Part shown: piece by piece, positions 28,879 to 47,162 of the stretch
How the letters are laid out: each line of letters opens with the position of its first letter
Numbering within the stretch: position 1 is the stretch's first letter
Assembly: GCA_913043025.1 (NCBI GenBank)
Contig: CAJWLM010000008.1
Span: forward strand, 39,306-103,305
Reading direction: 5' to 3'
Source of the DNA: an uncultured Rhodospirillaceae bacterium
GTDB lineage: Bacteria; Pseudomonadota; Alphaproteobacteria; UBA8366
Length of the DNA stretch: 64,000 nt
Notes under the pieces: generated by a model
Databases searched by the model: none
What the model was told of the DNA's origin: nothing
Seen by the model: the letters and a program-made list of their open reading frames with translations, nothing else
Position numbers and translations under genes: made by a program

Positions 28879-30459
28879 ATGGACCATCGGGTCTTACCAC
28901 CTGCTAATATAAAAAGCGATGTGCTTTCAAAAATTATAACAATTTCTGAGCTGAAAAAATTGTTAGGCGCACGAGGAGTGGCTGATCCCAAGGTTGTTCT
29001 TTGCCATGGAGTTTTTGATTTGTTACACATGGGCCATGTTCGGCACTTCCAAGAAGCGCGAGCAATGGGAGATCTCCTCGTTGTATCGATCACCGCGGAT
29101 GCTTTTGTAAATAAAGGACCGGGTAAGCCCGTTTTTTCTCAGGGCCTGCGTGCCGAAATGCTTGCAGCTCTCTCATGTATTGACTGGGTGACGGTCAATG
29201 ATGCCCCTGATGCTTTACCAATTATCGACGCTATCAAGCCAGACTTTTATGCAAAGGGTTCAGATTATTCGGATGCTAAAAATGATATTACTGGCAAAAT
29301 TAATGTGGAGCAAAAAAAAGCGGAAGCTTATGGCGGGAAGCTGGCTATAACAGACGATATAACATTTAGTTCTTCTGAACTACTAAATCGCCATTTTGAT
29401 GTGTTCGACCAACCTGTCCGTGATTTCTTATCACATATGCGCCTGAATGGGGCACTTAAACGCTTAAACAAACATTTGGAACAGCTTTCTCAAATGAGAG
29501 TTTTAGTGGTTGGGGATGCAATTATTGACGAATACCGATACGTAGCACCACTTGGAAAATCACCAAAAGAAAATATGATTGCAACTAAGTTCGAAGAAAA
29601 TGAGGTCTTTGCGGGCGGCGCCATCGCAACCGCTAACCACATTGCGGGATTGTGTGCCCAAGTCGATATCATGACGTGCCTAGGTGATAAGAGTGGAGAT
29701 AATGGGCACAACGACGAAGAACTTATCATGTCGGGCCTCGCTCAAAATGTCCAACTCTTGCCTATCCGACGTCGCGGCGCTCCGACTACACGCAAGACAC
29801 GTTTCATTGATCGATATTATTTCCGCAAACTGTTTGAGGTTTATGATTTCGATGACACTGCTCTTCCTCAGCCGTTACAAACGAAATTTGATCAGATGAT
29901 TGAGGAGAAAATAGAAGAATATGATATCGTCATTGTAAATGACTTTGGCCATGGACTTATTGCAGCAGAGACAATATCGATCTTAACAAAGAATTCGAAA
30001 TTCTTAGCGGTAAACGCCCAATCAAACAGCGCCAATTTTGGATTTAATCTGATAACGCGCTATCCACGGGCTGACGTTGTCTTCATTGATACGCCAGAAG
30101 CCCAGCTTGCGGTCGGCAATAAAACTACCGATCCCGCAACCGTAGTGTCAAAAGTACTGCCGACAAGAATAGACTGCGACAGATTTGTTTTAACTCTCGG
30201 AGCAGGTGGCTGTACCACATGGGAGAAAGGTAAAAACGTTCAAACTGTTCCAGCTTTCGCAACCTCTGTCGTAGATCTTGTTGGTGCCGGCGATGCCTTT
30301 CTTGCTGTAGCAGCCCCTTTTGTTGCAGTAGGCGCGTCAATGCGGGACGTTGGCTTCATGGGTAATATAGCCGGTGCCATCAAAGTAGGTATTGTGGGCC
30401 ATCGCAGTTCAATTGATGCAGCCAAGCTAATGAAATCTATTACAGGCCTACTTAAATGA
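28879..30459 (+). CDS. Bifunctional heptose-type sugar kinase/nucleotidyltransferase, HldE-like but with swapped domain order (nucleotidyltransferase N-terminal, PfkB kinase C-terminal)
   Basis: 526 aa. The N-terminal part VLCHGVFDLLHMGHVRHFQEARAMGDLLVVSITADAFVNKGPGKPV..CIDWV..KPDFYAKGSDY matches RfaE domain II (HxGH cytidylyltransferase-like). The C-terminal part VLVVGDAIIDEYRYV ... VVDLVGAGDAFLAVAA matches RfaE domain I (PfkB). Confidence 0.75.
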   Translation: MDHRVLPPANIKSDVLSKIITISELKKLLGARGVADPKVVLCHGVFDLLHMGHVRHFQEARAMGDLLVVSITADAFVNKGPGKPVFSQGLRAEMLAALSCIDWVTVNDAPDALPIIDAIKPDFYAKGSDYSDAKNDITGKINVEQKKAEAYGGKLAITDDITFSSSELLNRHFDVFDQPVRDFLSHMRLNGALKRLNKHLEQLSQMRVLVVGDAIIDEYRYVAPLGKSPKENMIATKFEENEVFAGGAIATANHIAGLCAQVDIMTCLGDKSGDNGHNDEELIMSGLAQNVQLLPIRRRGAPTTRKTRFIDRYYFRKLFEVYDFDDTALPQPLQTKFDQMIEEKIEEYDIVIVNDFGHGLIAAETISILTKNSKFLAVNAQSNSANFGFNLITRYPRADVVFIDTPEAQLAVGNKTTDPATVVSKVLPTRIDCDRFVLTLGAGGCTTWEKGKNVQTVPAFATSVVDLVGAGDAFLAVAAPFVAVGASMRDVGFMGNIAGAIKVGIVGHRSSIDAAKLMKSITGLLK

Positions 30460-31043
30460 CGGATTACCCCGCAACAATTGACCAATATCTCGAGAATATT
30501 TCAGACCTCAGGCACAAGATCACAGCGAGAAATAGTGCAGGAGAAATACTTTCACTCGCCGATGCCACAAAACTATCTGTAGAGTTAATTAGGTGTGCAT
30601 CACAGGACGGAGGAAAAATAATATTTATAGGCAATGGCGGCAGTGCAGCGATTGCAAGCCATATGGCAGTTGATTTTTCAAAAAACGGCCGGATGCCAGC
30701 GATTTGTTTTAACGACGCCGTGGCATTAACCTGCCTCACTAACGATCTGGGGTATGAAGAGGTGTTTTCTCAACCGATTCGAATGCTTGCAAAATCTAAT
30801 GATGTTCTTGTAGCAATCAGTAGTTCGGGACAATCACTTAATATAATTAACGCTGTGAAAGCGGCTCATTCTATTCCTATGAAAGTGGTAACACTTAGCG
30901 GTTTTGATGAGGCTAACTTACTTATAAATGAAGGCAATGTAAATTTTCATGTCCCATCAACACGTTATGGTGCCGTGGAAATTACCCATCTTACCTTATG
31001 CCATGCATTGCTTGATTTAATACTAGGAAAGAAAGCGGTCTGA
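30456..31043 (+). CDS. gmhA: Sedoheptulose-7-phosphate isomerase (SIS domain)
   Basis: 195 aa. Contains IIFIGNGGSAAIASHMAVDF and VLVAISSSGQSLNII, which is GmhA-like. An ATGA overlap links it to the upstream gene. Confidence 0.8.
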   Translation: MTDYPATIDQYLENISDLRHKITARNSAGEILSLADATKLSVELIRCASQDGGKIIFIGNGGSAAIASHMAVDFSKNGRMPAICFNDAVALTCLTNDLGYEEVFSQPIRMLAKSNDVLVAISSSGQSLNIINAVKAAHSIPMKVVTLSGFDEANLLINEGNVNFHVPSTRYGAVEITHLTLCHALLDLILGKKAV

Positions 31044-31048
31044 GGGCG

Positions 31049-32641
31049 TTAGCCCTTTTCATTGTTTGAAAATCCACTAAACCCGATCTGTTCTTTTTTC
31101 GAAAAACCTGCTGTCGCGTATTCCGCCGCATTCATAAAGGTTTTATGTGCTCTTTCGGATTTGGTTTGTCGTTTTTTCTTTAATTCTTGGTGTTTCCTCC
31201 AGGTGGTTCTTCGAACATCTTCGATTTCCTCCTGCGTCATACCCTCGATACGAATAGAAGACACAGAATACCTAATGTCATCAGGATCAAAAGATTCAGA
31301 CAACAAACCTCTATCAATAGCCTCGTCATAAACTGGAGTACCCGGAAGAGGAGTTACAACGGATAAGGCAAAGTCATCTAATTCTAAAGACATTGCATAG
31401 TCGGCTGTATGAAGAATTGATTGTTTCGTTTCGTCTGGAAAACCAATCATTAAAAAGCCTCGGACCTCTATATTTTTCGATTTCGCATACTGTATGATTT
31501 CAGGAACGCGCTCTAAATCAACTCTCTTGTCAATTCGTTCATCCTGGATGTCCTGATTTGCAGACTCAATTGCAAGCGTAAGACGATAGAAATTAGCTTC
31601 AGCAAGAAGATCAATCATCTCTTTATCTAAAGCATTTATCTCAGTGCCCGCCGGAACACTAAACACCATATCCGGAAAATTTGCAGCGAGCTCGCGACAA
31701 AGGTCTTTAACTCTCGGACCGGAGACAAAAAAATTATCGTCTAGAAATTGAATTTCTTCGACTCCAAATTCATCACGCAACCATCGAATTTCCTTTACCA
31801 CGTCATCATTTGTACGCTTGCGATAACCCTTAAAACCACCCATCAAAGGAGAAGTGCAATAAAAGCAAACATGAGGGCAGCCTCGAGTTGATACCATGAC
31901 GGCGTGTCGCTCTGCTTGAACATCGCCCCCCCCTGCCCGAACTTCAGAAGTCCAATAGGCTTCCATTGGAAACATATCCCAAGCTGGCAGCGGAAGTTTC
32001 GCAAGGCTTCCTGGATTGGGACCATCCTTACGGAAGTAATATTTGAAATCTTCCCCCTCAACGGCCGGCTTCACATTTGCCTGATTATCTATGATGTCAT
32101 TTCCATTACGATGAAATAGACCGCGGATATCACACAAGTCCCTGGTACCATTTAGTGCGTTGCATAGCTCAACAAAAGTTTCATCTGCTTCCCCCGCCAG
32201 AACGAAATCAACTTCTGGTCGTTTCATAACTTTTATGGGCATTGCTGAAGGATGATGGCCCCCTAACACAATAATTTTCTTTGGAAACCGAATTTTAATA
32301 GCTTCCACTAAACGAAAACTTTCCGCTGCTAGATTGGAGAAAAGAATACTGATCCCAATCAGGTCGGGATCAGCAACTTCTATGCGAGATAGGGCCTCCT
32401 CGACACCCAATCCATAGTAAACAAATTGTTCGGTATAACGCTCCTGATTATAGCCTTCAGCCAGCATATCTAGCACGTCGACCAGATAACCAGCTTCTCG
32501 AGCAGCAGCAGCTAAATACGCTAACCCGAGTGGGGGGTGACAATGCTTGCGCTCTGTAATTGTGCCATCTTTACCAATCAGGCAACGGCCTGGTGGCTGT
32601 ATCAACATAACGCGACGGATTTTATGCATTCTGTTTAACAT
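31049..32641 (-). CDS. B12-binding-domain radical SAM enzyme (class B type)
   Basis: 530 aa. An N-terminal Rossmann-like B12-binding-type region (PPLGLAYLAAAAREAGYLVDVLDM ... IIVLGGHHPS) is followed by the radical SAM motif TRGCPHVCFYCTS. Confidence 0.8.
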   Translation of the reverse strand: MLNRMHKIRRVMLIQPPGRCLIGKDGTITERKHCHPPLGLAYLAAAAREAGYLVDVLDMLAEGYNQERYTEQFVYYGLGVEEALSRIEVADPDLIGISILFSNLAAESFRLVEAIKIRFPKKIIVLGGHHPSAMPIKVMKRPEVDFVLAGEADETFVELCNALNGTRDLCDIRGLFHRNGNDIIDNQANVKPAVEGEDFKYYFRKDGPNPGSLAKLPLPAWDMFPMEAYWTSEVRAGGGDVQAERHAVMVSTRGCPHVCFYCTSPLMGGFKGYRKRTNDDVVKEIRWLRDEFGVEEIQFLDDNFFVSGPRVKDLCRELAANFPDMVFSVPAGTEINALDKEMIDLLAEANFYRLTLAIESANQDIQDERIDKRVDLERVPEIIQYAKSKNIEVRGFLMIGFPDETKQSILHTADYAMSLELDDFALSVVTPLPGTPVYDEAIDRGLLSESFDPDDIRYSVSSIRIEGMTQEEIEDVRRTTWRKHQELKKKRQTKSERAHKTFMNAAEYATAGFSKKEQIGFSGFSNNEKG

Positions 32642-32689
32642 TCGTTCAGAAAGGAAAGGTTTTTAAACTGTTAATACATATTGCTGCAA

Positions 32690-34219
32690 TTAGCACGCCA
32701 AATCACCTAAGGCTTTGGCAATTCGGCCTATAAGTTCACTAAATTCACCTTTAGAACGAAATAAACGCAGGCTTGGATACCATGGGGTATCCTCGCGTTC
32801 TAATTGCCACCGCCAGTCAGGCACAGTATCAAGTATCAGCCAAGTCGGCACACCCAAAGCCCCTGCTAAATGAGCAACCGATGTATCTACGGTGATCAGG
32901 AGATCCACATCAGAGAGTGCGCATGCGGTATCATAAAAATCATCAAATCCATCGCTTATATTTAGTAACGGTGTCTTAATATCTGAAAGTTGCTCGGCAG
33001 CAGTTCCCATTTGAAAACTCAAGAATTTAACACCTGGCACAGAGAGGATGGGCTCAAATGCCTTAAGCGGTAAGCTTCGCCTATGGTCGCGAGCATGATC
33101 CGGGTTTCCGGCCCACACGAGACCAACCTTCAGTTGCCGAGTGTGCGGGGTCAAACAGAATTTTTTATTCATTGAAATATATGGGACTTGGGAGGGAACC
33201 GTATGGAGCTGCGTTTTGAAAATATACGGTAAGCTCATTAACGGTGCATGGCAATCCGCATGCAAGGCCTTATCGCCCACTGTAACTTCATCCACACCGT
33301 CAACGTATGAAAAAAGTCGTAGAAGCGACTGACGACAGCTTATTACAACCCTACCAACTCGATCCTTCACTAGTTGGGCATATCGGATGAATTGAATTGC
33401 ATCGCCATGACCTTGCTCAGCCCACAGAATGATTGTCTCATTAGGCCGACATTCACCATCCCAAAATGGCACACTAAAACTTTGCCGATAGTCTTTTCTC
33501 TGCAGGCGCCATTCGTGTTCTGCAAAGCCATTAATGAAATCACCATGTAGAAGTAAAAGTTGTGCGCGATTGAGACGCGCGAAAACATGCTTAGAATTAA
33601 ATTTTAGCGCCATTTCTGATGCCTCACGTGCCAAAGCATATTCACCCCTCAACCCCCTTGCCACACATAAGTTATTAAACGCGTCGGCATCCTCAGAATG
33701 TTGTTCGATCTGATCCTCAATTTCTTTGACTGCTTCCGGAAGACGGTCCAGCCGCATCAAGGCAAGCCCAAGACCATTCCGAACTTTCGCATGCCACGGA
33801 GCATACAATTGACATTTCTGGAAGTGCCCAAGAGCCGCTTCGTAACGATTACGCTTATTCTCGAGAAGCCCAAGATTATAATGAGCATCGGCATATTCAG
33901 GAGCTTGAGATAGTGCGCTTAGATATGCTGTTTTTGCTTCATCCAGCCGCCCAAGAGCACTAAGCACTAGCCCCAAATTATTTGAATATTCCGGAATAGC
34001 TGGATTAAGAACGAGTGCTTTTTCTATATAAATTAATGCCTGCTCATTATCTTTGAGTTGGTGATTAATGAGCCCTAAAAGATTCAGTGCATCCGTGTTG
34101 TGTACATCCAGATTCAGAATTGATTCGTAAAGCTTTCGCGCAGCATTGAAGTCACCCGATTGGTGTAACTTAACCGCGGCATTCATAATATCTGAAGTCA
34201 CAAACGCACCTATTCCCAA
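32690..34219 (-). CDS. TPR-repeat protein fused to a GT9 (heptosyltransferase-family) glycosyltransferase domain
   Basis: 509 aa. The N-terminal ~220 aa are TPRs (ALNLLGLINHQLKDNEQALIYIEKALVLNP, YSNNLGLVLSALGRLDEAKTAY..). The C-terminal part has GT9 hallmarks: EQGHGDAIQFIRYAQLV, LKVGLVWAGNP.H..D..RS and LLITVDTSVAHLAGALGVPTWLIL. The start is either TTG 34219 or ATG 34186. Confidence 0.8.
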   Translation of the reverse strand: MGIGAFVTSDIMNAAVKLHQSGDFNAARKLYESILNLDVHNTDALNLLGLINHQLKDNEQALIYIEKALVLNPAIPEYSNNLGLVLSALGRLDEAKTAYLSALSQAPEYADAHYNLGLLENKRNRYEAALGHFQKCQLYAPWHAKVRNGLGLALMRLDRLPEAVKEIEDQIEQHSEDADAFNNLCVARGLRGEYALAREASEMALKFNSKHVFARLNRAQLLLLHGDFINGFAEHEWRLQRKDYRQSFSVPFWDGECRPNETIILWAEQGHGDAIQFIRYAQLVKDRVGRVVISCRQSLLRLFSYVDGVDEVTVGDKALHADCHAPLMSLPYIFKTQLHTVPSQVPYISMNKKFCLTPHTRQLKVGLVWAGNPDHARDHRRSLPLKAFEPILSVPGVKFLSFQMGTAAEQLSDIKTPLLNISDGFDDFYDTACALSDVDLLITVDTSVAHLAGALGVPTWLILDTVPDWRWQLEREDTPWYPSLRLFRSKGEFSELIGRIAKALGDLAC

Positions 34220-34318
34220 TTGAAGATTAAAATTTACTGTAATCTTTAATCAACGTAGCGGAATTCCCAATTTACAAAGATAAAATTATGACCAAGGAAA
34301 TTCGGGCACACTAGCTAG

Positions 34319-37300
34319 TTAGGGGTCAAGATAGCCACCTATGAATTCACCATCTTCAGGTCGGATAAGTTTTGGTCTCCATGGCCAGATCATCGTTGTG
34401 CAGGCTTGCTCCTTATCATCAAATTTTCTTAACACCTCTCCCGCAGCCCTATAATTTTCCAACGCCAATGAGACATTACCCAAAATTTCGTGACAACTAG
34501 CTAGTCGAACAAAAGTATCAAAACTCTGGCCTCCTAGAGATATTCCTTTTCCGTAGGAGCATATTGCTTTTTCAAGCTCTCCCATTTTTCTAAATGCGTC
34601 TCCCAGATAGTCCCAAGGCTCAAAAAGCATTGGATCGTGGGTGGCTGAGGTTTCAAATGCTTTTATAGATTCTTGGAGATTACCCTCTTCATAAAGCGCA
34701 ATTCCCAAATTAAAAAAGAAAGCAGGCTCATCTCTTTTAAGGGCTATCGCATTCTCAAAGAGATCAATTGCATCAGAATGTTTTCGAAATATGTTAGCCG
34801 CGATACCCAACATTCCTATTGTATTTGCATGGTCGGGAATCACTTGGAGGATCTGCTGAAATACCTGCACGCCCTTGTTAAATGTTGCAATGCCTCCACA
34901 GAACAAACGAACGCCTAATTTAAATGCTGCGTCTATCTTCAATTCAGCTTTATTAGCGCAAAGCGAGTGATTTACAGAAATATTATTCTCGTGTCCTATT
35001 TTCCCTAGCAAAGATTCAACATCGTGAACCTCGCGAATACATTCGTTATTTTGAATGGGCACACAGTCCAAGCAGTACACTGTGTTTGCAGCCTCTACCA
35101 AGGCTAACTGCAAATCAAAATGCAAAGACGCCGGTAAATGGATGCCAAATTTATAAGCCTCCGTTGTGGAAAAAACGGCACAACTGTCAAACGGTATCAC
35201 TAAAGCAGTTTTTGACCCAGCCTGCCTATTATCTTTTATAAACCTTAGAAATTTATCTCCGTATGCATCATCTTTGATTAATCTCTGAGAAGATTCAGAG
35301 CCCAAAAGTATAACCGTTAAAGGCAAATTTTCACCTTGCGAAGATCTCCACACATTAATGTAGGCTGCAGCTTGTATAGTTGCCTTCATAGGAAATTTCT
35401 GTTTCCTCTCAAAGGGCGGCAACTTTCCCGGTTGTTGATAGCTCCCGTTATTCACCAATGACTGACTATTTGTATTATTTTGGATAGCTAAAAATTCCAA
35501 GGCTCTATTGCGGCATATAAAGAAAGAAAACCCCCTGTTCTTGCGCACCATAGGAATCCACTTCATGACCAATTGCAATGGAATATGCCCACCTACCGAC
35601 ATACTCTTTATGTTTTTTGGAACGATACAAATGTGATTTGGCTGTTCGGCTACACCACTCGCAAACCTCACAAAGTTTTCAAGCGGGTCTTCACATTCCA
35701 AATCATCATCTTTTTCTAAATCGTACTCAACAACGACAACAGGTTGATTTAATTCCTTAGGTTTTCCAAATTCGTTTTCCCAGATCTCCATTGTTTGTGT
35801 AGAACCAACTAAGGGCAGTACGAGGTGCTTGTGCCGTCCCTCAAATATGGTCCTTCGTCTTGGAAATAGGGTTTCCTTTGCCTCATCTAACTTCCGTTTC
35901 TGCTTTTTGTGTGATACCACAAAAGAATTGTACATCCTTGCAGCCGTCTTATTCTTTCCTAACCTCTCATGACAAAATGCTAAATCCAGCTTTGCTCGCC
36001 AGTTCAAACGGTCCCTTTCAACCTCAATCGCAAATTCATCCGCAGCTTTACTCATGTGCCCCTGTGAGAGATACAGTTTAGCAAGAAGGCCTGATATGCC
36101 ATTTAATTTACAATCAGATTTTTTTAAATTTTCTAACAAATCTAACGCCACGGAGGCATTCCCTAAAGATTTTTCTGCAAGTGCCAAGTTGAAAATACAC
36201 TGCGGCGAATGGGGTTGACGATCTAAACAAAGCTTTAAAGCTTTTTTCGCTTCCGTGGGGCGTTCAAGATGAAGAAGTGCTAGGCCTCGCATCACAGCGG
36301 CATCAAAATCATCTTGATCAAGAGACAAAAGATAATCGTAGATATCCAGCGCGTGCGTACATCTACCTACCTGATGCAAGGTTACAGCAAAACGATAACT
36401 TTCGTCTCGTCCAAATATTGGTCGATTTTCGATTTTGTCCAAATCACCGCGCTCTATTGCATTATTTACCGCGCAAGAAGCATCTGCGAAAGAATCCACC
36501 AGTGTCTCGTAACAATCATCATTCCATATTATTCGCTGAAATGGTGTTGCCATCGGTAACTGGCCTCCAATAGGGATCCCATAAACACCACATGTTGCTC
36601 TCTCATCTGCTTCATCTGTTGCATTAAACATCTTATAGGCTAGATATCGAATTTTTGGATTAAGGTAGCAAATCTGTAACGGACCATTGTTAACCAACAT
36701 GTTGAGAAATGCGGACTCGTAAAATGCTAGGCGCAGGTCTAGGTCAATCGCTGCCTCATTAAAATGGCACAAGCCCTTCAATTCTTCAGGAACAGGTAAA
36801 AATACTGCATCTGTGTCACGAATTATAACGGGAAGAAATTCATTTTCATCAATGGTCGCTGCAAAGCGTGCCCAAGCATCAAGGTTACTATTGCGAGCCG
36901 GATCATTAGGAGACTCCCGCAAAGTTATAGCAATTACCTTGCGTCCCCTAGCATGCTTCTCATACCACTCCCTAACATATTGTTCTGCTCGGAGCGTCGG
37001 AGTTAAAATTGGGACTTCATCGCCTTTTAAGTGCCTTATAACAACCCCAGCAAACATAAACGCATCAATCGATGACTGAATAGCTTTTTGCGAGTCAAAA
37101 ATATGGGTGGTGTAATCAACCGGAAAGATATTCGATGCTAAATTATCCTCTATAGAAGTTGCCTGTGCCCGTTTGGAGCAAACTGTGATTCCTTTAATCG
37201 AAGAAAGGAAAGAGCAAGCAGCAATATGCATATTTTGTAATCGCCAACGACTAATATCACCTGACAAATGCATCATACGGAAACCGTCATCGGCCCCCGG

Positions 37301-37450
37301 GACAAAAACTATATGTAATGACTTGCAACCAACCTGAATTCGTCGCATTTCTGCGCGAAGAAGAAAGCTTAGAAAGTCAAAGGTCACCGTGCATATTTGC
37401 AAATCGTAAAAGGCGTAAAGAACACTGTTGCTATTTTGAACATTTTTCAT
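34319..37450 (-). CDS. 1043-aa protein: two divergent GT9-like glycosyltransferase-type modules, each followed by a TPR array
   Basis: The CDS itself is confident (long ORF). Aa ~9-325 are clearly paralogous to aa ~6-312 of the 47163-48728 protein. Aa ~340-520 and ~860-1010 are TPRs. Aa ~690-800 repeat the second half of the module (LTVILLGSESSQ..ALVIPFD..LHFDLQLALVEAANTVYCLD). The GT function is inferred from layout similarity to GT9 and has not been demonstrated. Confidence 0.55.
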   Translation of the reverse strand: MKNVQNSNSVLYAFYDLQICTVTFDFLSFLLRAEMRRIQVGCKSLHIVFVPGADDGFRMMHLSGDISRWRLQNMHIAACSFLSSIKGITVCSKRAQATSIEDNLASNIFPVDYTTHIFDSQKAIQSSIDAFMFAGVVIRHLKGDEVPILTPTLRAEQYVREWYEKHARGRKVIAITLRESPNDPARNSNLDAWARFAATIDENEFLPVIIRDTDAVFLPVPEELKGLCHFNEAAIDLDLRLAFYESAFLNMLVNNGPLQICYLNPKIRYLAYKMFNATDEADERATCGVYGIPIGGQLPMATPFQRIIWNDDCYETLVDSFADASCAVNNAIERGDLDKIENRPIFGRDESYRFAVTLHQVGRCTHALDIYDYLLSLDQDDFDAAVMRGLALLHLERPTEAKKALKLCLDRQPHSPQCIFNLALAEKSLGNASVALDLLENLKKSDCKLNGISGLLAKLYLSQGHMSKAADEFAIEVERDRLNWRAKLDLAFCHERLGKNKTAARMYNSFVVSHKKQKRKLDEAKETLFPRRRTIFEGRHKHLVLPLVGSTQTMEIWENEFGKPKELNQPVVVVEYDLEKDDDLECEDPLENFVRFASGVAEQPNHICIVPKNIKSMSVGGHIPLQLVMKWIPMVRKNRGFSFFICRNRALEFLAIQNNTNSQSLVNNGSYQQPGKLPPFERKQKFPMKATIQAAAYINVWRSSQGENLPLTVILLGSESSQRLIKDDAYGDKFLRFIKDNRQAGSKTALVIPFDSCAVFSTTEAYKFGIHLPASLHFDLQLALVEAANTVYCLDCVPIQNNECIREVHDVESLLGKIGHENNISVNHSLCANKAELKIDAAFKLGVRLFCGGIATFNKGVQVFQQILQVIPDHANTIGMLGIAANIFRKHSDAIDLFENAIALKRDEPAFFFNLGIALYEEGNLQESIKAFETSATHDPMLFEPWDYLGDAFRKMGELEKAICSYGKGISLGGQSFDTFVRLASCHEILGNVSLALENYRAAGEVLRKFDDKEQACTTMIWPWRPKLIRPEDGEFIGGYLDP

Positions 37451-37589
37451 GTGACCAAGCCTTAACCTCAGGCATGACTAAAGTATATTAATCTTAAAAC
37501 TGATGGTAAGAACCGTGATTGAAAATTCATTCACTCTTGCCTCCATGATGGAATGCTTTTTGCATGGTTGCAACCTGTAAAATAGCTAT

Positions 37590-38780
37590 TTGGTGATTCA
37601 GATGCAGATGAGACAACAAGAGCAGAATTTATTTGCAGAAATTCAAAAAAAGATTTCTGCCCTTACTGAAACGCAAAAAAACCTCTCTCGTGAAAATCAA
37701 ATTCTTCGCCAATATATATCTGAAAACCAAATCCAAGCAGAAAAATTTAATACCGAGTTGCAACATAAATTAGCCGATAATTATGCAGCAGCGCGAGAAG
37801 CCGACTATTATTACAATATCGATATCGTGGGTACGTGCTCAGTCCAATGCCCTTCATGCCCGGTTGGAAATTCTGCTGATGCCCCAACCCCCAAGGGAAT
37901 GATGAGCATCGAGACTTTTGAAGAGGTATTAGACAAAATTAAAATTGAAAGTCCAGGCGCACGTACATCAGTTGAACTCTACAATTGGGGAGAGTCGGCA
38001 TTACACCCTGACTTGCCTAAATTTATAGCAGCAGTCAAAAACCGAGGATTCATCTGCGGCCTCTCGAACAATTTGAATCACGTTCGGGATATGCGTGGAT
38101 TAGTCAAGGCAAAGCCGGACTATTTAAGGGTGTCCATATCAGGTTTTAAGAACGAAACCTATCAACAGACCCACAGGGGTGGCGATGTTAATAATGTTAA
38201 AGCTAATCTACACTTACTTCGCGCTACCATGGATAGCTACGGGCTTGACGTCACACAGGTAGAAATTGGTTATTTAGTTTACCGTCATAATTTTGATGAG
38301 GATTTCATAGCGATCAAACATCTATGCGATCAATTACATTTTTCATTCAATTGGACATTTTCGGTAATGATGCCGGTCGAGACTGCCATCAAGATAGCCG
38401 AAGGGAAAATACCAAAGAATGTAGAAGAAATTAATGATTTACTAGTCATTAATCCCGCCAAGTGGAAGGAGCTAACACTGCAATATCGCGATTACTTCAA
38501 AGAATGTGATATGAGACCTAATCGCACAGTGATAAACTTCGATAAATCAGTACCTTTGTGTTGCGGTACATATTTACCTGAAAATTATATTGCGCAAGAC
38601 TTTTTAAAAATCTCGCATAATGATTTACAGAAAAAGAAATATGAAAATGATCTGTGCGCAAAGTGTATGGAAAATATGGTAGACCACATGTTTACATGTG
38701 TGAGACCGCCCGAAGTAGATGATTATGCGTATAAAGAATTAAGCAAATTAGGAACGTTTACGGGGAAAAATGGACGTTAA
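37590..38780 (+). CDS. Radical SAM protein with an N-terminal Q/E-rich coiled-coil; paralog of 40795-42798
   Basis: 396 aa. Contains NIDIVGTCSVQCPSCPVGN (CxxxCxxC). The N-terminus is MQMRQQEQNLFAEIQKKISALTETQKNLSRENQILRQYISENQ. The start codon is TTG, with ATG alternatives at 37602 and 37608. Confidence 0.75.
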   Translation: MVIQMQMRQQEQNLFAEIQKKISALTETQKNLSRENQILRQYISENQIQAEKFNTELQHKLADNYAAAREADYYYNIDIVGTCSVQCPSCPVGNSADAPTPKGMMSIETFEEVLDKIKIESPGARTSVELYNWGESALHPDLPKFIAAVKNRGFICGLSNNLNHVRDMRGLVKAKPDYLRVSISGFKNETYQQTHRGGDVNNVKANLHLLRATMDSYGLDVTQVEIGYLVYRHNFDEDFIAIKHLCDQLHFSFNWTFSVMMPVETAIKIAEGKIPKNVEEINDLLVINPAKWKELTLQYRDYFKECDMRPNRTVINFDKSVPLCCGTYLPENYIAQDFLKISHNDLQKKKYENDLCAKCMENMVDHMFTCVRPPEVDDYAYKELSKLGTFTGKNGR

Positions 38781-38940
38781 AACAAACTGAGTGCGTTGAA
38801 TATTTGCAGTTCATAACACGGATATAGGACGAGAAAGATTCTTAATTCATTAACTGTAAAATAAGGGTATTTGCAAAGAGTAAAAAGAATTCCCTGTCAG
38901 CGCAGCACAAACTTAATGGCAAAGAATTGATAAATAAGCC

Positions 38941-40752
38941 TCAAAGACACTTATCAGCCAAATCGATTACCGAGACACGAGAACCATCACAGAACAACTC
39001 CCACATTTTTTTTAGTCCTAACTGCACCGAGCGTGAAAAATGATCCGCGTCACAAAGAGAAGAACACTCTGTTTTTGAGGGTAATGTTTTCCTTAACTGA
39101 CGAAGCGCATCAGGTTTCTTAGCGAGGGTCCTTGCCAAATTTATATATTCGTCAACTGAATTTGTTGAAAACTCTTCAAGATTAATTGCTTCATAAATCG
39201 TTCTGCCTGTTCGAGACACTATCCTATTATCGTAACACCAATTTATAACTGGAACTCCATGGCAGAGAGCTTCCAGAGTGGTACACCCCCCCTGCTCAGG
39301 TATCGTGTCGAGTGCTATATCAATTTTATGATAAATATCTAAGTGTGAAATCTGGTCGGTTTGACCGAAGAAAGATAGACGGTCAGCTGCGATATTCTTT
39401 TTAGAGAAAAAAGACAAAACCCTCTGTTGAATTAGGGTTTCATCAAATTGGCCTCCTTTTAAGATCAATCGAGAATTGGGCACGGATGCCAACACATCGG
39501 ACCAGACCTCTAAACAAAGCGGCGTAACTTTTACGAATCGATTGAGGCTACCGAAAGTTATGAAGCCCTGGCTATCGAATGGCAAGTCTGACACATTTTT
39601 ACCATTAATTGGTGACGTCCAACAAAAATATGGCCCATCAGCCAACACCATAGCGCCATTGTACGCATGGAAGGTTTCCTTTGGAACAACACTGCGATCA
39701 AACCAGAAATAATCAAATTCACTGGTCCCTAAAGGTAAACTCGCGGCCTCGACTTGAATTGGAGCAGCTCGGCCTGCATACACCCGCACGCGAGGACGAT
39801 CGCCGATTGCCCCCAAATGTATAAGGATATCAATTTTATCCTCTCTCACCCTAGATAGAACTTCCTCATCAGTAAGGTTAGAAATTTGATATTGGTGATC
39901 AAAAACATCCGTAAAATCGGAAACAGTGCCAAAGCAAACGTCGCCGTCAATATACCCAAATAATTCGAAATTGTTTTTATCATAGCCGTAAAACCATGCC
40001 CCCCAGATGTAGAGCAATGTATTTGCGTCAACTAATTCAAGCGGCAAAAAACCAATGCGCAGTCGTCTGTCCTTCGCTTTTTTAACAGTCGCATAGTCAA
40101 AGTCCGGCACGACGCCGTAATTATACTTTTGGAGATTTTCTAATCCGGAAAAATGACTTGATTGCTCTGGAGACCGCAATGAGGTCTCGGCAAAGTGAAA
40201 GTATAATGCTTCGGGAGAAGCCTCAGGCCTTTTAATAAGAGGCTCGAGTAAATCCATACCCTCAGTATGGAAACCACGAGTAAGAACAACATATGCAATA
40301 CGAAATCGAAGTGCATCCAATTCCAAATCTTGCATCGCAAGAAAATGCTTTGCTCCATCAAGGGCTACTTCAATATTCCCCTGATGTAATAGCGTAGCGA
40401 GAACACCAACTAACTTTTCGTGAAAATATGATAAGTCATTGCCCTGAATCGCATGCTTTTTTAGTACAAAGCAAGCGGCTGAAAACTTTCCTTGCATTAA
40501 GAGTGAATCAAACCAAAATCTTAATGCAAGCGAATCTGTGTTCTGAGGTTGTTGAGTACAAATCTTTTCGAAATAGCCTTCTGCTTTTGTTGGCTGCTGC
40601 TTTTGCAGATAAATTAATCCAATCAACAATAGCGCTTGGGCCTGACTTGGTTCAGATGATAAAACGTCCAGCAACAAAGTCTCTGCGACATCAAGTTTTC
40701 CTACTTTCTGATATTTTATAGCCGATTCTACTTTTGAAAGCTGATCATTCAT
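38941..40752 (-). CDS. TPR + GT41 (O-GlcNAc-transferase/SPINDLY-like) glycosyltransferase
   Basis: 603 aa with N-terminal TPRs. The C-terminal ITFGSLNRFVKVTPLCLEVWSDVLASVPNSRLILKGG and DIALDTIPEQGGCTTLEALCHGVPVI match the OGT/SPY catalytic-domain signatures (F.xFN...K..P....W..IL..VPNS.L.L and D..LDT.P..G.TT). Confidence 0.8.
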   Translation of the reverse strand: MNDQLSKVESAIKYQKVGKLDVAETLLLDVLSSEPSQAQALLLIGLIYLQKQQPTKAEGYFEKICTQQPQNTDSLALRFWFDSLLMQGKFSAACFVLKKHAIQGNDLSYFHEKLVGVLATLLHQGNIEVALDGAKHFLAMQDLELDALRFRIAYVVLTRGFHTEGMDLLEPLIKRPEASPEALYFHFAETSLRSPEQSSHFSGLENLQKYNYGVVPDFDYATVKKAKDRRLRIGFLPLELVDANTLLYIWGAWFYGYDKNNFELFGYIDGDVCFGTVSDFTDVFDHQYQISNLTDEEVLSRVREDKIDILIHLGAIGDRPRVRVYAGRAAPIQVEAASLPLGTSEFDYFWFDRSVVPKETFHAYNGAMVLADGPYFCWTSPINGKNVSDLPFDSQGFITFGSLNRFVKVTPLCLEVWSDVLASVPNSRLILKGGQFDETLIQQRVLSFFSKKNIAADRLSFFGQTDQISHLDIYHKIDIALDTIPEQGGCTTLEALCHGVPVINWCYDNRIVSRTGRTIYEAINLEEFSTNSVDEYINLARTLAKKPDALRQLRKTLPSKTECSSLCDADHFSRSVQLGLKKMWELFCDGSRVSVIDLADKCL

Positions 40753-40794
40753 ATAAATTGCTCGCGCGGCATTGTGAGCACTTTTTTTATGAGA

Positions 40795-42798
40795 TCAACG
40801 GCCATCTTTCCCAACAAACGCACCTTTTTCAGATAGTGTCTTATATGCTTTTCTTTCACCCATTTCTGGGTGAACGCCTGAATAAAAGAAATAGGCGTTT
40901 GACTCCATACAATCTCCACAAAGACTGTGGTCGGAGCGGCATTTCTGTATGTCATCGTGCGATACTTCAAGAAAATCTTTTACTGTAATATTGTCGTAAG
41001 AATAGGACGCGCAGCAAATAGGAACTGTACCATCAAAATTAATTGCCATTCGATGCTTTTTTAAGTGGCATTCACCTGGAACATTCTTGCGGAAGGCGCC
41101 TGAAGCATCAACCAGCTCTTTCCATTCACGGGGATCTACAGGTAAATTTTCAAAAATTTCTTTATCAGCCTGGTCATATTCTCCGCGAATGGCTGTGATG
41201 GTTTTTTCGACTGGCATGTAAACAGCGAAGATCCAATCGAAATGAAAATCAAGTTCTTCTGCCAATAAACGCATTCGCACAAAATCATCTGAAAAATTAT
41301 GCTTGTACACCATATACCCAATTTCAATCGCCGTTTTCGATTTGGTCCGGTCTAAGACATGACGCAACAAATGCATATTCGATTTTACAATATTGATGTC
41401 ACCACGGGTATGAGTTTGCATATGAGTTTCATTGCTAAATCCCGACAGCGATATTCTCAGGGCATCTGGCTCCGCCCCGATAATTTCCTCTAGCTTTTTT
41501 CGGCTCAAATTATGGTTCAAATTGCTAGACAAACCGACAAGGAAGCCATATTCACGAGTTTTTTTTATGAATTCGGGCAACTTTGGATGGAGCAGCGATT
41601 CCCCCCAATTATGTATATCTATCGCTATGCTAACACATGGATCATGAGATTTTTTTATCTTCGCTAAGATTTTTTCATATTTATCCAAGTCCATAAATCC
41701 CTTTGGAATCCCACCATCATCAAAGTTTCCAACAGGGCATGAGGGGCACCGTAGATTACAAGTACCAACAATATCAATGTTGTAGTAAAAGTCTGCTTGC
41801 CGCGCAGCATAGTACTTTTCTCGCAACTGCTCCATTTTATGAGCATCGAACCGAACCGATAATAATCGGTCGAGTTCCGAATTATCTAACTTTGGCAAGT
41901 GCCATAGAGCACGGGTCGCCAAATCATTATTAGGTTGTAATTCGACTACCCGCTCAAACGCCGTGATGGCCTCCCTTATGGCGGCTGATGCATAAAGACT
42001 TTGAGCAGTCATTGCCCATTGAACAATGTCATCAGCAGCCTGACCATATAAATGTGCGATTGCCAGATGTGCATCCTGATCTCGATAACTTAACTCAGGA
42101 GGGTTAATCACCTCAAAGATAGGAAGCTGTGGCTGCTGAAAAGCTGGCGTTTCCCTTGCCAAATCCGTCAAATAGGGGTTTTTGCGGATACTTAAGATAC
42201 AGTCAATCAAATGGGTCGCAATAGTATCCTTAGGCAGGTCAAAATTATTAAAAACATCTGAGTCTATGAATTGTGCGGTTTCAAGATTCTTAAGGGCTAA
42301 GCGCACGTAATCACACTCAGCCGCGAAAATACCAATCACACAATAGGTTTCGGCAAGACTTGGAAGCTTTTTCAAAAATATGTTGTGTTGATTAACGCCG
42401 GATTCCGCGCATTTTTTTTCGCTGCCAAACCATTGGTAAAGAGGCCTTGCGATTTCTTCGTATTCAGTCGAAATACCGCGCCCTTGTTCACGGGCTTTAT
42501 CGAGTGCTTTGAGAAAAAGCTTGATCTGCCCTAACTCAAGAGAAATGATCGCTGCTTTTAATAAAGTATCAGGTTCCAAAGACGCTTTAATAATCTCAGC
42601 CATCAAATGATGTGCTTTGTCTAAAATCCCCTTTTCTAGGTACTCCCGCGCCATGGCTATTAGGTCGATTTCACTGGAGCTTGATGTTATCTCAGAAGCC
42701 GTCTCTCTTTCAGATTTTTCTTCGGTCGAACCATAGAGATCGGCGGTCCTATTGCTATCCGTTTCAGTGATTATTTCTGCAACATTTTGATACGACAT
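40795..42798 (-). CDS. Radical SAM protein with a long N-terminal helical-repeat (TPR-like) region; paralog of 37590-38780
   Basis: 667 aa. Contains NIDIVGTCNLRCPSCPVGN. It is collinear with the 396-aa paralog through to the C-terminus (..SEKGAFVGKDGR versus ..SKLGTFTGKNGR). Confidence 0.75.
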   Translation of the reverse strand: MSYQNVAEIITETDSNRTADLYGSTEEKSERETASEITSSSSEIDLIAMAREYLEKGILDKAHHLMAEIIKASLEPDTLLKAAIISLELGQIKLFLKALDKAREQGRGISTEYEEIARPLYQWFGSEKKCAESGVNQHNIFLKKLPSLAETYCVIGIFAAECDYVRLALKNLETAQFIDSDVFNNFDLPKDTIATHLIDCILSIRKNPYLTDLARETPAFQQPQLPIFEVINPPELSYRDQDAHLAIAHLYGQAADDIVQWAMTAQSLYASAAIREAITAFERVVELQPNNDLATRALWHLPKLDNSELDRLLSVRFDAHKMEQLREKYYAARQADFYYNIDIVGTCNLRCPSCPVGNFDDGGIPKGFMDLDKYEKILAKIKKSHDPCVSIAIDIHNWGESLLHPKLPEFIKKTREYGFLVGLSSNLNHNLSRKKLEEIIGAEPDALRISLSGFSNETHMQTHTRGDINIVKSNMHLLRHVLDRTKSKTAIEIGYMVYKHNFSDDFVRMRLLAEELDFHFDWIFAVYMPVEKTITAIRGEYDQADKEIFENLPVDPREWKELVDASGAFRKNVPGECHLKKHRMAINFDGTVPICCASYSYDNITVKDFLEVSHDDIQKCRSDHSLCGDCMESNAYFFYSGVHPEMGERKAYKTLSEKGAFVGKDGR

Positions 42799-43011
42799 AT
42801 GCAGTTGTCTCCGGCTTATTGATCAATACATAGCCACCTTGGCAGCCGATAGTCACCAGCTCCGCAACGGGGAGAAGAGCAACCTGAATAGGTTGTCCTT
42901 TTAATGACCGGACGAAACTGTATTAAAAGCTTGCAAATTTCACACCAAGTAGGAGGATCTGTATAAATTTGTATACGTGCTATAGAAGGTTATTTGGTTG
43001 AGGAAAGTTCC

Positions 43012-43851: not shown

Positions 43852-43856
43852 GTTCA

Positions 43857-45050: not shown

Positions 45051-45062
45051 GCGTAAGAGTGG

Positions 45063-46190: not shown

Positions 46191-46401
46191 AAAACATCTC
46201 CATCAACAAGCAGCCAAACCCTCGTCAGATATTTAAAAAATACTACAGCCTTTTAAAACTCTAGAAATTTCGTAATCAGAGACTAGTGAACCTAACATGG
46301 CCTACTCTTCCCCTGGTACATAAAATTCGAAAACAAGATATTTTCCCAAAATCATTCTGTATATGTTGTGACTTCTATCTCGCTTATTTTGTATAAACAA
46401 T

Positions 46402-47136: not shown

Positions 47137-47162
47137 ATTAATAAATAACTATTAAGGATGCG

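What the first reader, a model, noticed from the sequence alone, without database searches (positions are those of the whole stretch)
34319..37450. 1043-aa protein looks like a head-to-tail fusion of two [GT9-like module + TPR] units (twice the 521-aa paralog)
The architecture read from the translation is module 1 (aa ~9-325), TPRs (~340-520), a second degenerate module (~560-800), then TPRs (~860-1010). The second module includes ..VVEYDLEKDDD.., LTVILLGSESSQ.., ALVIPFDS and LHFDLQLALVEAANTVYCLD. Total length (1043 aa) is almost exactly twice the single-unit paralog (521 aa) encoded 10 kb away. The second module is much more diverged than the first, which suggests either a regulatory pseudo-GT or a second specificity. 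Tandem bi-modular glycosyltransferases typically add two different sugars or act processively.
Basis: inference. Interest (0 to 1): 0.55.

Follow-up and report, generated by a model that had tools for sequence, protein, structure and literature searches.

The report
Glycosyltransferase with degenerate, hypervariable second copy
This 1043-residue protein from a marine bacterium really is two copies of a [sugar-transferase-like module + TPR repeats] unit joined head to tail, but the second copy has lost nearly all the family's conserved residues and lies in a stretch of the gene that differs drastically between otherwise near-identical genomes, so it is more likely a swappable binding module than a second enzyme.

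Summary
ORF 34319-37450 (-) encodes 1043 aa: module 1 (aa 5-330), TPR1 (343-549), module 2 (~565-854), TPR2 (859-1009).

- Unit 1 matches the 521-aa paralog (47163-48728) at E=2e-66.
- Unit 2 is a very diverged homolog of unit 1. hhalign gives E=3.5e-10 for the modules alone and E=7e-24 over 440 collinear columns for whole units. Reversed-profile controls give E=0.16-0.27.
- Module 1 belongs to a widespread family with no Pfam or NCBIfam model. Its AlphaFold model (pLDDT 94) is GT-B, closest to GT9 heptosyltransferases by fold only.
- Module 2 keeps 4 of 33 family-conserved positions in all three alleles, yet is under purifying selection (dN/dS ≤0.23). It is probably a non-catalytic pseudo-glycosyltransferase.
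- Unexpected: from about codon 310 to the stop, the gene is a deeply diverged allelic cassette (35-56% identity, saturated dS). The island around it is 81-95% identical (dS ~0.3-0.4).
- Geobacter-type relatives carry two intact modules.

Not shown: enzyme activity, the acceptor, and the 3D fold of module 2 (its AlphaFold model failed, pLDDT 41). I rate this a new variant of a known kind, of moderate interest.

The parts
34319..37450 (-). Complete 1043-aa ORF (ATG start to stop), soluble two-unit protein
   Evidence: ORF. (identical protein on two marine metagenome contigs). (no TM-like segment, maximum KD19 of 1.34).
36461..37438 (-). Module 1 (aa 5-330): conserved GT-B-fold module of an unannotated family; probable catalytic glycosyltransferase
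   Evidence: Family HMM E=2e-128. 82 homologs. AF2 pLDDT 94.4. Foldseek top hits are GT9 structures. 87% identical to the ortholog, dS 0.38.
35804..36424 (-). TPR block 1 plus linker (aa 343-549)
   Evidence: Pfam TPR families above gathering score. Family TPR-tail HMM 101 bits.
34889..35758 (-). Module 2 (aa ~565-854): deeply diverged duplicate of module 1 that lacks the family's conserved polar residues; probable pseudo-glycosyltransferase
   Evidence: hhalign E=3.5e-10 with controls. Conserved-residue map. No homolog other than orthologous alleles. No PDB sequence hit. dN/dS <=0.23.
34424..34876 (-). TPR block 2 (aa 859-1009)
   Evidence: Pfam TPR families. Family TPR-tail HMM 101 bits.
34322..34420 (-). 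C-terminal tail (aa 1011-1043), better conserved between alleles (70-81%), includes the KEQAC.TMIWPWRPKL.RPE motif
34319..36520 (-). Hypervariable allelic cassette (codon ~310 to the stop): synonymous sites saturated against L004, while the flanks have dS ~0.3-0.4
   Evidence: Sliding pS/pN. Regional dS. blastn similarity is lost at 34946-36264 against both L004 and L003.
47163..48728 (+). 521-aa single-unit paralog (module + TPR)
   Evidence: E=1.8e-66. (TPR only in Pfam). Uniformly 87% identical to its counterpart in MAG SP3966.
28879..48728 (.). Surrounding sugar-tailoring island: HldE-like, SIS/GmhA-like, five radical-SAM enzymes (one B12-binding), TPR-GT9-like, TPR-GT41, RmlD-like, C-methyltransferase, SAM methyltransferase

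Best explanation
The gene encodes a soluble, cytoplasmic two-unit protein that arose by tandem duplication and fusion of a [GT-B module + TPR] gene like the 521-aa paralog.

Unit 1 carries the working enzyme. It is a GT-B-fold (GT9-like fold) nucleotide-sugar transferase from a widespread but unannotated family, and it acts in the surrounding heptose and modified-sugar island.

Unit 2 is an ancient, strongly diverged copy that has lost the residues the family uses (by inference) to bind the nucleotide-sugar. It is nevertheless kept under purifying selection. It most likely serves as a non-catalytic binding or scaffolding module (a pseudo-glycosyltransferase) which, together with the two TPR blocks, recognises the acceptor or a partner protein and presents it to module 1.

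The whole non-catalytic part (TPR1, module 2, TPR2) exists as deeply diverged alleles that recombination has exchanged into an otherwise conserved island. This would let closely related strains retarget the same catalytic module.

Shown: the architecture, the homology of the two units, the GT-B fold of module 1, the loss of conserved residues in module 2, purifying selection, and the mosaic structure.

Inferred: glycosyltransferase activity of module 1, inactivity and a binding role for module 2, and specificity switching by the cassette.
For: - Architecture and homology.
- Module 1 fold: AF2 pLDDT 94.4, pTM 0.92. Foldseek best hits are GT9 3tov (E=3.8e-8, TM 0.53), WaaF 1psw, WaaC 2h1h and TibC 4rap, followed by other GT-B enzymes.
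- Family context is consistently sugar-nucleotide tailoring. Examples are a flagellin glycosylation island with Maf/FliS/FliD/FlaG/flagellin in Pseudoalteromonas, NeuB and CMP-sugar clusters, and a Wzx-type flippase.
- Module 2 degeneracy: only D577, V610, R647 and A783 of 33 conserved positions persist in all three alleles. T176/R178, R186-N187-S188, P110/Y113, Y244, N250, G256 and P257 are lost or deleted. By contrast, both modules of the Geobacter-type double proteins keep 23-24 of 33, including the whole polar core.
- Not a relic: the ORF is intact and exactly 1043 aa in two lineages whose synonymous sites are saturated. dN/dS is <=0.23, and about 75 positions are invariant among three alleles that are 35-43% identical.
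- Mosaic: flanking genes have dS 0.18-0.62 and 81-95% aa identity, and module 1 has dS 0.38. From about codon 310, pS is 0.6-1.0. The paralog is uniformly 87% identical in the same genome pair.
- Precedents: inactive GT-B modules that bind substrate and lack the donor-binding basic residues, namely GtfB, Asp1 and the Gly N-terminal domains. TPR as the acceptor-binding module of a GT-B enzyme, FlmG. TPR as an oligomerisation module in multi-domain polymerases.
Against: - No enzyme activity, donor or acceptor is known for any member of the family. The GT assignment rests on fold similarity at 9-14% identity, and other GT-B-fold enzymes (2-epimerases, TagF) also appear among the hits.
- The 3D fold of module 2 could not be verified (pLDDT 40.8).
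- Which family-conserved residues bind the donor is inferred from their position in the GT-B topology and from a non-significant alignment to WaaC (E=0.4).
- Module 2 keeps D577 (equivalent to the invariant D16) and R647, and it has its own conserved motifs, so a changed catalytic activity is not excluded.
- Only three alleles are known, and one was stitched across two frameshifts on an error-prone contig.
- No candidate acceptor gene, such as flagellin, lies in the 64-kb window.
Confidence: 0.58

Rival explanations
1. Bifunctional enzyme. Both modules are active glycosyltransferases, and module 2 has evolved a different donor and/or acceptor specificity, so its loss of family-signature residues reflects re-specialisation and not inactivation. 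The protein would add two different sugars in succession, as dual-module enzymes such as KpsC do.
For: Module 2 is under purifying selection and has its own invariant motifs across three alleles, such as NHICxVP, WxPxVxxNxGxSxF, TxQAxAYIxxW and PAxLxxDLxxALxEA. It keeps the D16 and R94 equivalents. Relatives with two intact modules exist (L071, L075, L076). The dual-module GT precedent is KpsC.
Against: The polar core that is invariant across the whole family, including both modules of the 25-30%-identical Geobacter proteins (T176, R178, R186, N187, S188, W193, Y244, N250, G256), is replaced by non-polar or unrelated residues or is deleted. Loss of basic donor-binding residues is the hallmark of inactive GT-B modules. 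The three alleles differ by about 60% in sequence, which is unusual for a catalytic site serving a fixed pathway.
Confidence: 0.24
2. Module 1 and its family are not glycosyltransferases. They are another kind of GT-B-fold enzyme acting on nucleotide sugars, for example a 2-epimerase-like or TagF-like phosphotransferase. The two-unit architecture would stay as described.
For: Foldseek also returns UDP-GlcNAc 2-epimerases (E~2e-4) and TagF (E~1e-3). There is no sequence link to any CAZy/Pfam GT family. The islands are rich in sugar-tailoring enzymes and poor in obvious polymerisation genes.
Against: The best hits, and the only ones with E<1e-5 that cover the whole model, are GT9 transferases with TM about 0.5. 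Fusion to TPRs is typical of protein-directed GT-B transferases. The family also occurs fused to other GT-like or Maf-type domains.
Confidence: 0.12
3. Unit 2 is a functionless relic of a gene duplication that is drifting, and its high divergence between genomes is just relaxed constraint.
For: Amino-acid identity is very low between alleles (34-43%). Signature residues are lost. No homologs exist outside the orthologs.
Against: Synonymous sites are also saturated in the cassette while the flanks have dS ~0.3-0.4, so the region has a deeper history and not just a faster protein clock. dN/dS is <=0.23. There are no stops or frameshifts, and only 10 gap columns across two 1043-aa alleles at saturating divergence. 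The hydrophobic and secondary-structure pattern stays collinear with module 1.
Confidence: 0.04
4. The apparent similarity of module 2 to module 1 is a chance or compositional match between two alpha/beta regions, and the protein is a fusion of unrelated parts.
For: Single-sequence tests are only marginal (BLAST E=0.18; hhalign P=0.0076 and shuffles p~0.004). The structure prediction failed.
Against: Three-allele profile E=3.5e-10, against reversed controls of 0.16-0.27. Whole-unit E=7e-24. HMM hits are reciprocal and always in the same register. Motif order is the same in both modules.
Confidence: 0.02

Closest known systems
GT9 heptosyltransferases (WaaC, WaaF, Veillonella 3tov; protein heptosyltransferase TibC)
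   Same: Module 1's predicted structure is a two-Rossmann GT-B fold whose best PDB matches are these enzymes. The island encodes heptose-nucleotide genes (SIS/GmhA-like, HldE-like). A non-significant but collinear alignment puts R186-N187-S188/W193 opposite the WaaC K192-W region, and VNNGP opposite the VDTGLSH loop.
   Different: There is no detectable sequence relationship: Pfam PF01075 is absent even at E<=10, hhalign against WaaC/F/Q/U gives E=0.4, and identity in structural alignments is 9-14%. The family has its own motif set (LYAFYDL, TLRE, RNSN, RDTE, LRxALYE, NNGP). The donor and acceptor are unknown.
TPR-GT-B protein glycosyltransferases (FlmG of Caulobacter; OGT/GT41)
   Same: A TPR block is combined with a GT-B catalytic domain in a soluble protein. 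In FlmG the TPR part binds the acceptor, flagellin, and the GT part transfers the sugar. One family member lies in a flagellin glycosylation island, and a TPR-GT41 gene is a neighbour.
   Different: The domain order is reversed (GT then TPR). The unit is duplicated, with a degenerate second GT-like module. There is no flagellin or other identified acceptor in the window, and no sequence similarity to GT41 outside the TPRs.
Catalytically inactive GT-B modules that bind substrate (GtfB of the GtfA/GtfB O-GlcNAc transferase, Asp1, the N-terminal domains of Gly)
   Same: A GT-fold module that has lost the basic and acidic residues needed for nucleotide-sugar binding is retained next to, or in complex with, an active GT, and it binds the acceptor. 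Module 2 shows the same pattern of losses (R178 to G/S/A, R186 to L/I/L).
   Different: Here the inactive copy is fused in cis. It derives from the same family as the active module, is flanked by TPRs, and is an allelic hypervariable cassette. A binding function has not been demonstrated, and there is no sequence homology to GtfB or Asp1.
Dual-module glycosyltransferases with two active homologous modules (KpsC; the Geobacter-type double N-family proteins L071/L075/L076)
   Same: Two homologous GT modules sit in tandem in one polypeptide.
   Different: In KpsC and in the Geobacter-type proteins, both modules keep the catalytic signature (23-24 of 33 positions). The window's module 2 keeps 9 of 33 (4 of 33 across alleles). 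The linker is a full TPR block, not the ~140-aa YYLxxxPD-repeat linker.
Multi-domain capsule polymerases with TPR domains (Cps1B, Cps7D and other TagF-like polymerases)
   Same: These are large soluble proteins that combine two transferase domains with a TPR domain, which mediates oligomerisation and is dispensable for catalysis.
   Different: Their two catalytic domains are from different families and both are active. They have one TPR block, and there is no evidence of allelic cassettes.

Membership tests
GT9 (CAZy GT9 / Pfam PF01075 Glyco_transf_9) | Sequence match to the family profile at or above the curated threshold | tested here: not met
   No PF01075 hit for the full protein at E<=1, nor for isolated module 1, module 2 or the paralog module at E<=10. 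No NCBIfam GT model either.
GT9 (CAZy GT9 / Pfam PF01075 Glyco_transf_9) | Profile-profile similarity to bona fide GT9 enzymes | tested here: not met
   hhalign of the N-family profile against E. coli WaaC/WaaF/WaaQ/WaaU gives probability 0.15%, E=0.4. The neighbouring 509-aa TPR protein does reach E=3.5e-5 in the same test.
GT9 (CAZy GT9 / Pfam PF01075 Glyco_transf_9) | GT-B fold most similar to GT9 structures | tested here: met
   Module 1 only. The AF2 model has pLDDT 94.4. Foldseek top hits are 3tov E=3.8e-8, 1psw E=1.8e-6, 2h1h and 4rap, with TM 0.4-0.53.
GT9 (CAZy GT9 / Pfam PF01075 Glyco_transf_9) | Inverting transfer of heptose from ADP-heptose | not testable with these tools
   Only contextual evidence: SIS/GmhA-like and HldE-like genes in the island.
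Unannotated N-module family (motifs LYAFYDL / TLRE / RNSN / RDTE / LRxALYE / NNGP) | Full-length match to the family HMM | tested here: met
   Module 1: 413.8 bits, E=2e-128. Paralog: E=1.8e-66. Module 2 scores only -0.4 to 2.9 bits in the window allele and 21.7 bits in the L007 allele.
Unannotated N-module family (motifs LYAFYDL / TLRE / RNSN / RDTE / LRxALYE / NNGP) | Retention of the 33 invariant or near-invariant positions | tested here: not met
   This row is for module 2: 9 of 33 in the window allele and 4 of 33 in all three alleles. For comparison, module 1 has 33 of 33, the paralog 31 of 33, and the Geobacter-type modules 23-24 of 33.
Unannotated N-module family (motifs LYAFYDL / TLRE / RNSN / RDTE / LRxALYE / NNGP) | Common ancestry of module 2 with the family (profile-profile homology) | tested here: met
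   hhalign probability 96.7%, E=3.5e-10, with reversed controls at E=0.16-0.27. Whole units E=7.3e-24. Reciprocal HMM hits.
TPR repeat proteins | Pfam TPR models above gathering score | tested here: met
   TPR_16, TPR_2, TPR_1, TPR_12, TPR_9 and others in two blocks.
Non-catalytic GT-B modules (functional class: GtfB, Asp1) | GT-B fold retained | tested here: inconclusive
   The AF2 model of module 2 from three sequences has pLDDT 40.8. Its secondary-structure order resembles module 1, but the model is not reliable.
Non-catalytic GT-B modules (functional class: GtfB, Asp1) | Loss of donor-binding or catalytic residues while remaining under selection | tested here: met
   Losses are listed. dN/dS is <=0.23 and the ORF is intact. 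The assignment of those residues to donor binding is inferred, not shown.
Non-catalytic GT-B modules (functional class: GtfB, Asp1) | Binds acceptor or partner and lacks transferase activity | not testable with these tools
   Requires biochemistry.
Dual-active tandem glycosyltransferases (KpsC-like class) | Both modules keep the catalytic signature | tested here: not met
   Module 2 lacks the family's polar core. The Geobacter-type relatives do meet this feature.

The most novel reading that the evidence does not exclude
The TPR1 / pseudo-GT / TPR2 segment is a swappable specificity cassette. Deeply diverged alleles are maintained in the population and recombined at the module 1/TPR1 junction, which retargets one conserved catalytic glycosyltransferase to different acceptors or partners. 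Strain-level glycan or protein-glycosylation diversity would then be encoded by exchanging the non-catalytic two-thirds of a single gene, and not by swapping whole glycosyltransferase genes.
Probability: 0.3. Interest if true: 0.7.

Novelty: new variant of a known kind. Interest (0 to 1): 0.5.

Why it matters
The finding matters for three reasons:

1. **An unannotated enzyme family.** It defines a widespread GT-B family with no Pfam or NCBIfam model, found in Alphaproteobacteria, Nitrospirales, Planctomycetia, Desulfobacterota, Gammaproteobacteria and at least one methanogen. The family travels with unusual sugar-tailoring islands, including a flagellin glycosylation island. It is a candidate for the missing transferases of such islands.

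2. **A natural active/inactive comparison.** Within one family there are single units, tandem units with two intact modules, and this tandem unit with one degenerate module. That is a ready-made system for asking how pseudo-glycosyltransferases arise and what they do.

3. **A testable model for glycan diversification.** The sharp mosaic, with a conserved catalytic third and hypervariable non-catalytic two-thirds, suggests that specificity is diversified by cassette exchange inside a single gene. If so, this is a compact mechanism for surface-glycan variation in marine bacteria.

Tried and rejected
- **dN/dS of about 10 in module 2 (L007 against L004).** This is an artefact. 49 isolated N characters in the L007 MAG were being counted as substitutions. 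With those codons skipped, there are only about 7 real differences in the gene. L007 and L004 are the same allele.
- **Structure of module 2.** The second run, with three sequences, gave pLDDT 40.8. I did not run a fold search on it because the result would be meaningless.
- **Word-indexed homolog searches with module 2.** These found nothing, or only the 127-aa fragment P0084. Scanning 185k reference genomes with module 2 found nothing.
- **Exhaustive HMMER search.** It found only the ortholog P0083 and P0084.
- **Pfam, NCBIfam and PDB sequence searches.** They gave no family for either module.
- **Mapping family residues onto GT9 catalytic residues by hhalign.** Not significant (E=0.4), so I use it only as an illustration.
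- **Apparent long fusions in L025 (1181 aa) and L019 (678 aa).** These are stop-to-stop over-extensions in high-GC sequence, not real architectures.
- **The first genome scan with the 74-sequence alignment.** It failed because no stretch was conserved enough. I repeated it with 10 sequences.
- **Flagellin or another acceptor gene in the window.** None was found.


Full report
**1. What is at the coordinates**

Pfam places TPR families in two blocks, about aa 353-447 and 857-1011, and finds nothing else. NCBIfam likewise gives only sub-threshold TPR-type hits.

The "521-aa paralog" is the ORF at 47163..48728 (+). It aligns to aa 4-478 of the large protein at 30% identity, E=1.8e-66, and its TPR tail also matches aa 838-1003. 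The exact 1043-aa protein is called on two separately assembled marine metagenome contigs with the same gene order. An ortholog of exactly 1043 aa exists on a Tara Oceans scaffold. The long ORF is therefore real.

**2. Is the second half a copy of the first?**

Outside the TPRs, BLAST sees only an in-register hit of E=0.18.

I built an HMM from 83 module-1 homologs. It finds a second weak match at aa 688-789 in the same profile register. About 20 of 5000 shuffles of the C-module reach the real score, and hhalign against the single sequence gives P=0.0076. That is suggestive only.

The exhaustive HMMER search of 1.84 billion representatives returned just two relatives of module 2: the ortholog P0083 and a 127-aa fragment, P0084. 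P0084 lies on a long-read contig (L003) where every gene call is broken by frameshifts. Stitching three reading-frame pieces gave a third allele.

With the three-allele profile, hhalign against the module-1 family gives probability 96.7% and E=3.5e-10 over 281 collinear columns. Reversing either profile gives E=0.27 and 0.16. Comparing whole units (module plus TPR) gives probability 99.6% and E=7.3e-24 over 440 collinear columns, aa 4-524 against 565-1017.

Independently, the family HMM hits the second module of the ortholog in the Rhodospirillaceae MAG SP3966 (L007) at i-E=1.6e-5. The module-2 HMM also hits ordinary family members down to E=2e-7, always over the same sub-region.

The head-to-tail duplication is therefore established by sequence statistics. 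It could not be checked structurally, because the AlphaFold model of module 2 from three sequences has pLDDT 40.8.

**3. What module 1 is**

A search with aa 1-340 finds 82 homologs. Most are stand-alone proteins of 330-430 aa with no Pfam domain, about 15 carry a C-terminal TPR tail, and none is longer than 583 aa.

A scan of one genome per species found 80 loci across Alphaproteobacteria (mostly Rhodospirillales), Nitrospirales, Planctomycetia, Dehalococcoidia, Desulfobacterota, Gammaproteobacteria, Acidobacteria and others. One member is from a Methanospirillum assembly.

The AlphaFold model of module 1 is confident (pLDDT 94.4, pTM 0.92) and shows two Rossmann-like lobes. Foldseek against the PDB gives GT9 enzymes as best hits: 3tov E=3.8e-8 with TM 0.53, WaaF 1psw, WaaC 2h1h, and TibC 4rap. 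These are followed by WaaG, NodZ/POFUT1/FUT8, UDP-GlcNAc 2-epimerases and TagF. Sequence identity to all of them is 9-14%.

At the sequence level there is no link to GT9. Pfam finds nothing even at E<=10, the PDB profile search finds only TPR proteins, and hhalign against E. coli WaaC/WaaF/WaaQ/WaaU gives E=0.4. "GT9-like" is therefore correct for the fold and unsupported for family membership.

**4. Genomic context**

The gene sits in an island of about 20 kb (28.9-48.7 kb). It encodes:
- an HldE-like kinase/cytidylyltransferase and a SIS (GmhA-like) isomerase;
- five radical-SAM enzymes, one of them B12-binding;
- a TPR protein with a weak GT9-like C-terminal domain, and a TPR-GT41 protein;
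- an RmlD-like reductase, a sugar C-methyltransferase and a SAM methyltransferase;
- the 521-aa paralog.

Housekeeping genes flank the island.

Other family members lie in comparable sugar-tailoring clusters:
- P0076 sits next to NeuB, a CMP-sugar synthetase and LicD in Paraneptunicella.
- P0009 sits among TPR proteins and split transketolase genes.
- P0014 sits next to a Wzx-type flippase.
- P0072 sits next to a B12-radical-SAM enzyme and NeuB in Methanospirillum.
- P0077 in Pseudoalteromonas sits in a flagellin glycosylation island that ends with Maf, FliS, FliD, FlaG and flagellin.

This fits a transferase that acts on unusual activated sugars. The acceptor, whether protein or glycan, is not identified, and the window has no flagellar genes.

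**5. Is module 2 an enzyme?**

The family alignment has 8 invariant and 25 near-invariant positions. Mapping them through the hhalign alignment shows that only D16→D577, V50→V610, R94→R647 and A242→A783 persist in all three module-2 alleles.

The following are replaced by unrelated residues or deleted:
- T176-x-R178, which directly follows the first strand of the C-terminal lobe;
- R186-N187-S188;
- FP110xxY113;
- Y244;
- the N250/G256/P257 loop.

By contrast, Desulfuromonadales MAGs (L071, L075, L076) encode proteins of about 900 aa with two full-scoring modules (each E~1e-60). Although these are only 25-30% identical to the window protein, both of their modules keep 23-24 of the 33 positions, including the whole polar core.

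In GT-B enzymes the C-terminal lobe binds the nucleotide-sugar (established knowledge). Loss of the basic residues there is what distinguishes the inactive substrate-binding GT-B proteins GtfB and Asp1 from active GtfA. On that basis I judge module 2 to be probably non-catalytic. This is an inference, and a re-specialised activity is not excluded.

**6. Module 2 is not decaying**

Between the window and L004, the cassette has saturated synonymous divergence (pS 0.70-0.83), yet dN/dS is <=0.23. The two proteins are both exactly 1043 aa, with only 10 gap columns. About 75 positions are invariant among three alleles that are 35-43% identical.

**7. The unexpected part: a mosaic gene**

Every neighbouring protein is 81-95% identical between the window and L004, and module 1 is 87% identical. 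In contrast, TPR1 is 48%, module 2 is 35%, TPR2 is 56% and the last ~30 residues are 70-81% identical. L003 shows the same profile.

Flanking genes have dS 0.18-0.62, and module 1 has dS 0.38. At about codon 300-320, pS jumps to 0.6-1.0 and stays there to the stop codon. blastn similarity to both relatives is lost over window 34946-36264.

In the same genome pair, the 521-aa paralog is uniformly 87% identical. The non-catalytic two-thirds of this one gene therefore has a much older history than everything around it. These are divergent alleles placed by recombination, with the 5' breakpoint at the module 1/TPR1 junction.

**8. An error I caught**

A first comparison of L007 with L004 gave dN/dS of about 10 in module 2. 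This was caused by 49 isolated N characters in the MAG sequence. When those codons are skipped, the two are essentially identical. No claim of positive selection is made.

**9. Verdict**

The thing itself is best described as a conserved catalytic GT-B module of an unannotated family, fused to a hypervariable TPR / pseudo-GT / TPR cassette derived from an ancient duplication of the same unit.

The nearest functional analogues are:
- FlmG and OGT, where a TPR targets a GT-B enzyme;
- GtfB and Asp1, which are inactive GT-B binding modules;
- KpsC and the Geobacter-type relatives, which have two active tandem modules;
- the TPR-containing multi-domain capsule polymerases.

It is a new variant of known kinds, not a new kind. 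Its interest lies in the unannotated family and in the cassette-like variation.

Noticed in passing
window 37425-38796 (ORF 37590..38780 +): The 396-aa radical-SAM gene, divergently transcribed from the 1043-aa gene, is a 1.37-kb insertion absent from both related islands (L004, L003). Its best match there is 40% identity to the C-terminal part of the 670-aa radical-SAM protein, so it looks like a paralog-derived accessory gene specific to this allele of the island.
   Followed up: partly
window ~37150-37390 (codons ~21-100 of the 1043-aa gene): Synonymous divergence from L004 is almost nil here (pS 0.00-0.09), while the rest of module 1 and the flanking genes have pS ~0.3-0.4. This suggests a very recent exchange patch inside the conserved module.
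   Followed up: no
L007 5992-9120 (MAG SP3966 ortholog): Isolated N characters are about 4 times denser in module 2 (34 per kb, spread evenly over codon positions) than in the rest of the gene (7-10 per kb, mostly third positions). If they mark ambiguous consensus calls, they hint at population microdiversity concentrated in module 2. Their meaning is unknown, and downstream genes have even more Ns.
   Followed up: partly
L071 4591-7290, L075 4573-7293, L076 4573-7293: Geobacter/Desulfuromonadales MAGs encode proteins of about 900 aa with two intact family modules. The modules are joined by a ~140-aa linker carrying repeated D-x-x-YYL-x-x-x-PD motifs, and are followed by a short TPR.
   Followed up: partly
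L069 4606-6975 (Nitrospirales MAG): A 790-aa ORF joins a different N-terminal domain of about 460 aa to a family module with 27 of 33 conserved positions. By eye the N-terminal domain resembles CgeB-like glycosyltransferase domains. I did not scan it against Pfam.
   Followed up: no
L087, L006, L089, L088, L005 (contexts of family members): The family recurs with one particular gene set: split transketolase N and C subunits, Zn-ADH, SDRs, several SAM methyltransferases, a sugar C-methyltransferase, an HldE-like enzyme, a B12-radical-SAM enzyme and NeuB. This suggests a shared pathway for an unusual branched or higher-carbon sugar. In L087 the cluster abuts Maf, FliS, FliD, FlaG and flagellin.
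   Followed up: partly
window 32690-34219 (-): The neighbouring 509-aa TPR protein has a C-terminal domain that is only marginally GT9-like: Pfam PF01075 E=0.012 (below threshold), and hhalign against E. coli GT9 enzymes E=3.5e-5 over 39 columns around the DSG..H-type loop. It appears to be another divergent TPR-linked transferase in the island.
   Followed up: partly
Foldseek result for module 1 (window 36431-37450): Rank 4 in the PDB search is chain 9grx_1 of the spinach NDH-PSI-LHCI supercomplex (E=1.7e-5, TM 0.45), an unexpected GT-B-like match that I did not examine.
   Followed up: no
window 42994-43851 (+) and 43809-45050 (+): The RmlD-like ORF and the GTG-started C-methyltransferase ORF overlap by 43 nt in the mechanical ORF list. 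On the metagenome contigs the methyltransferase is called at 397 aa and the RmlD-like gene at 279 aa, so the longest-ORF starts are probably too far upstream.
   Followed up: no
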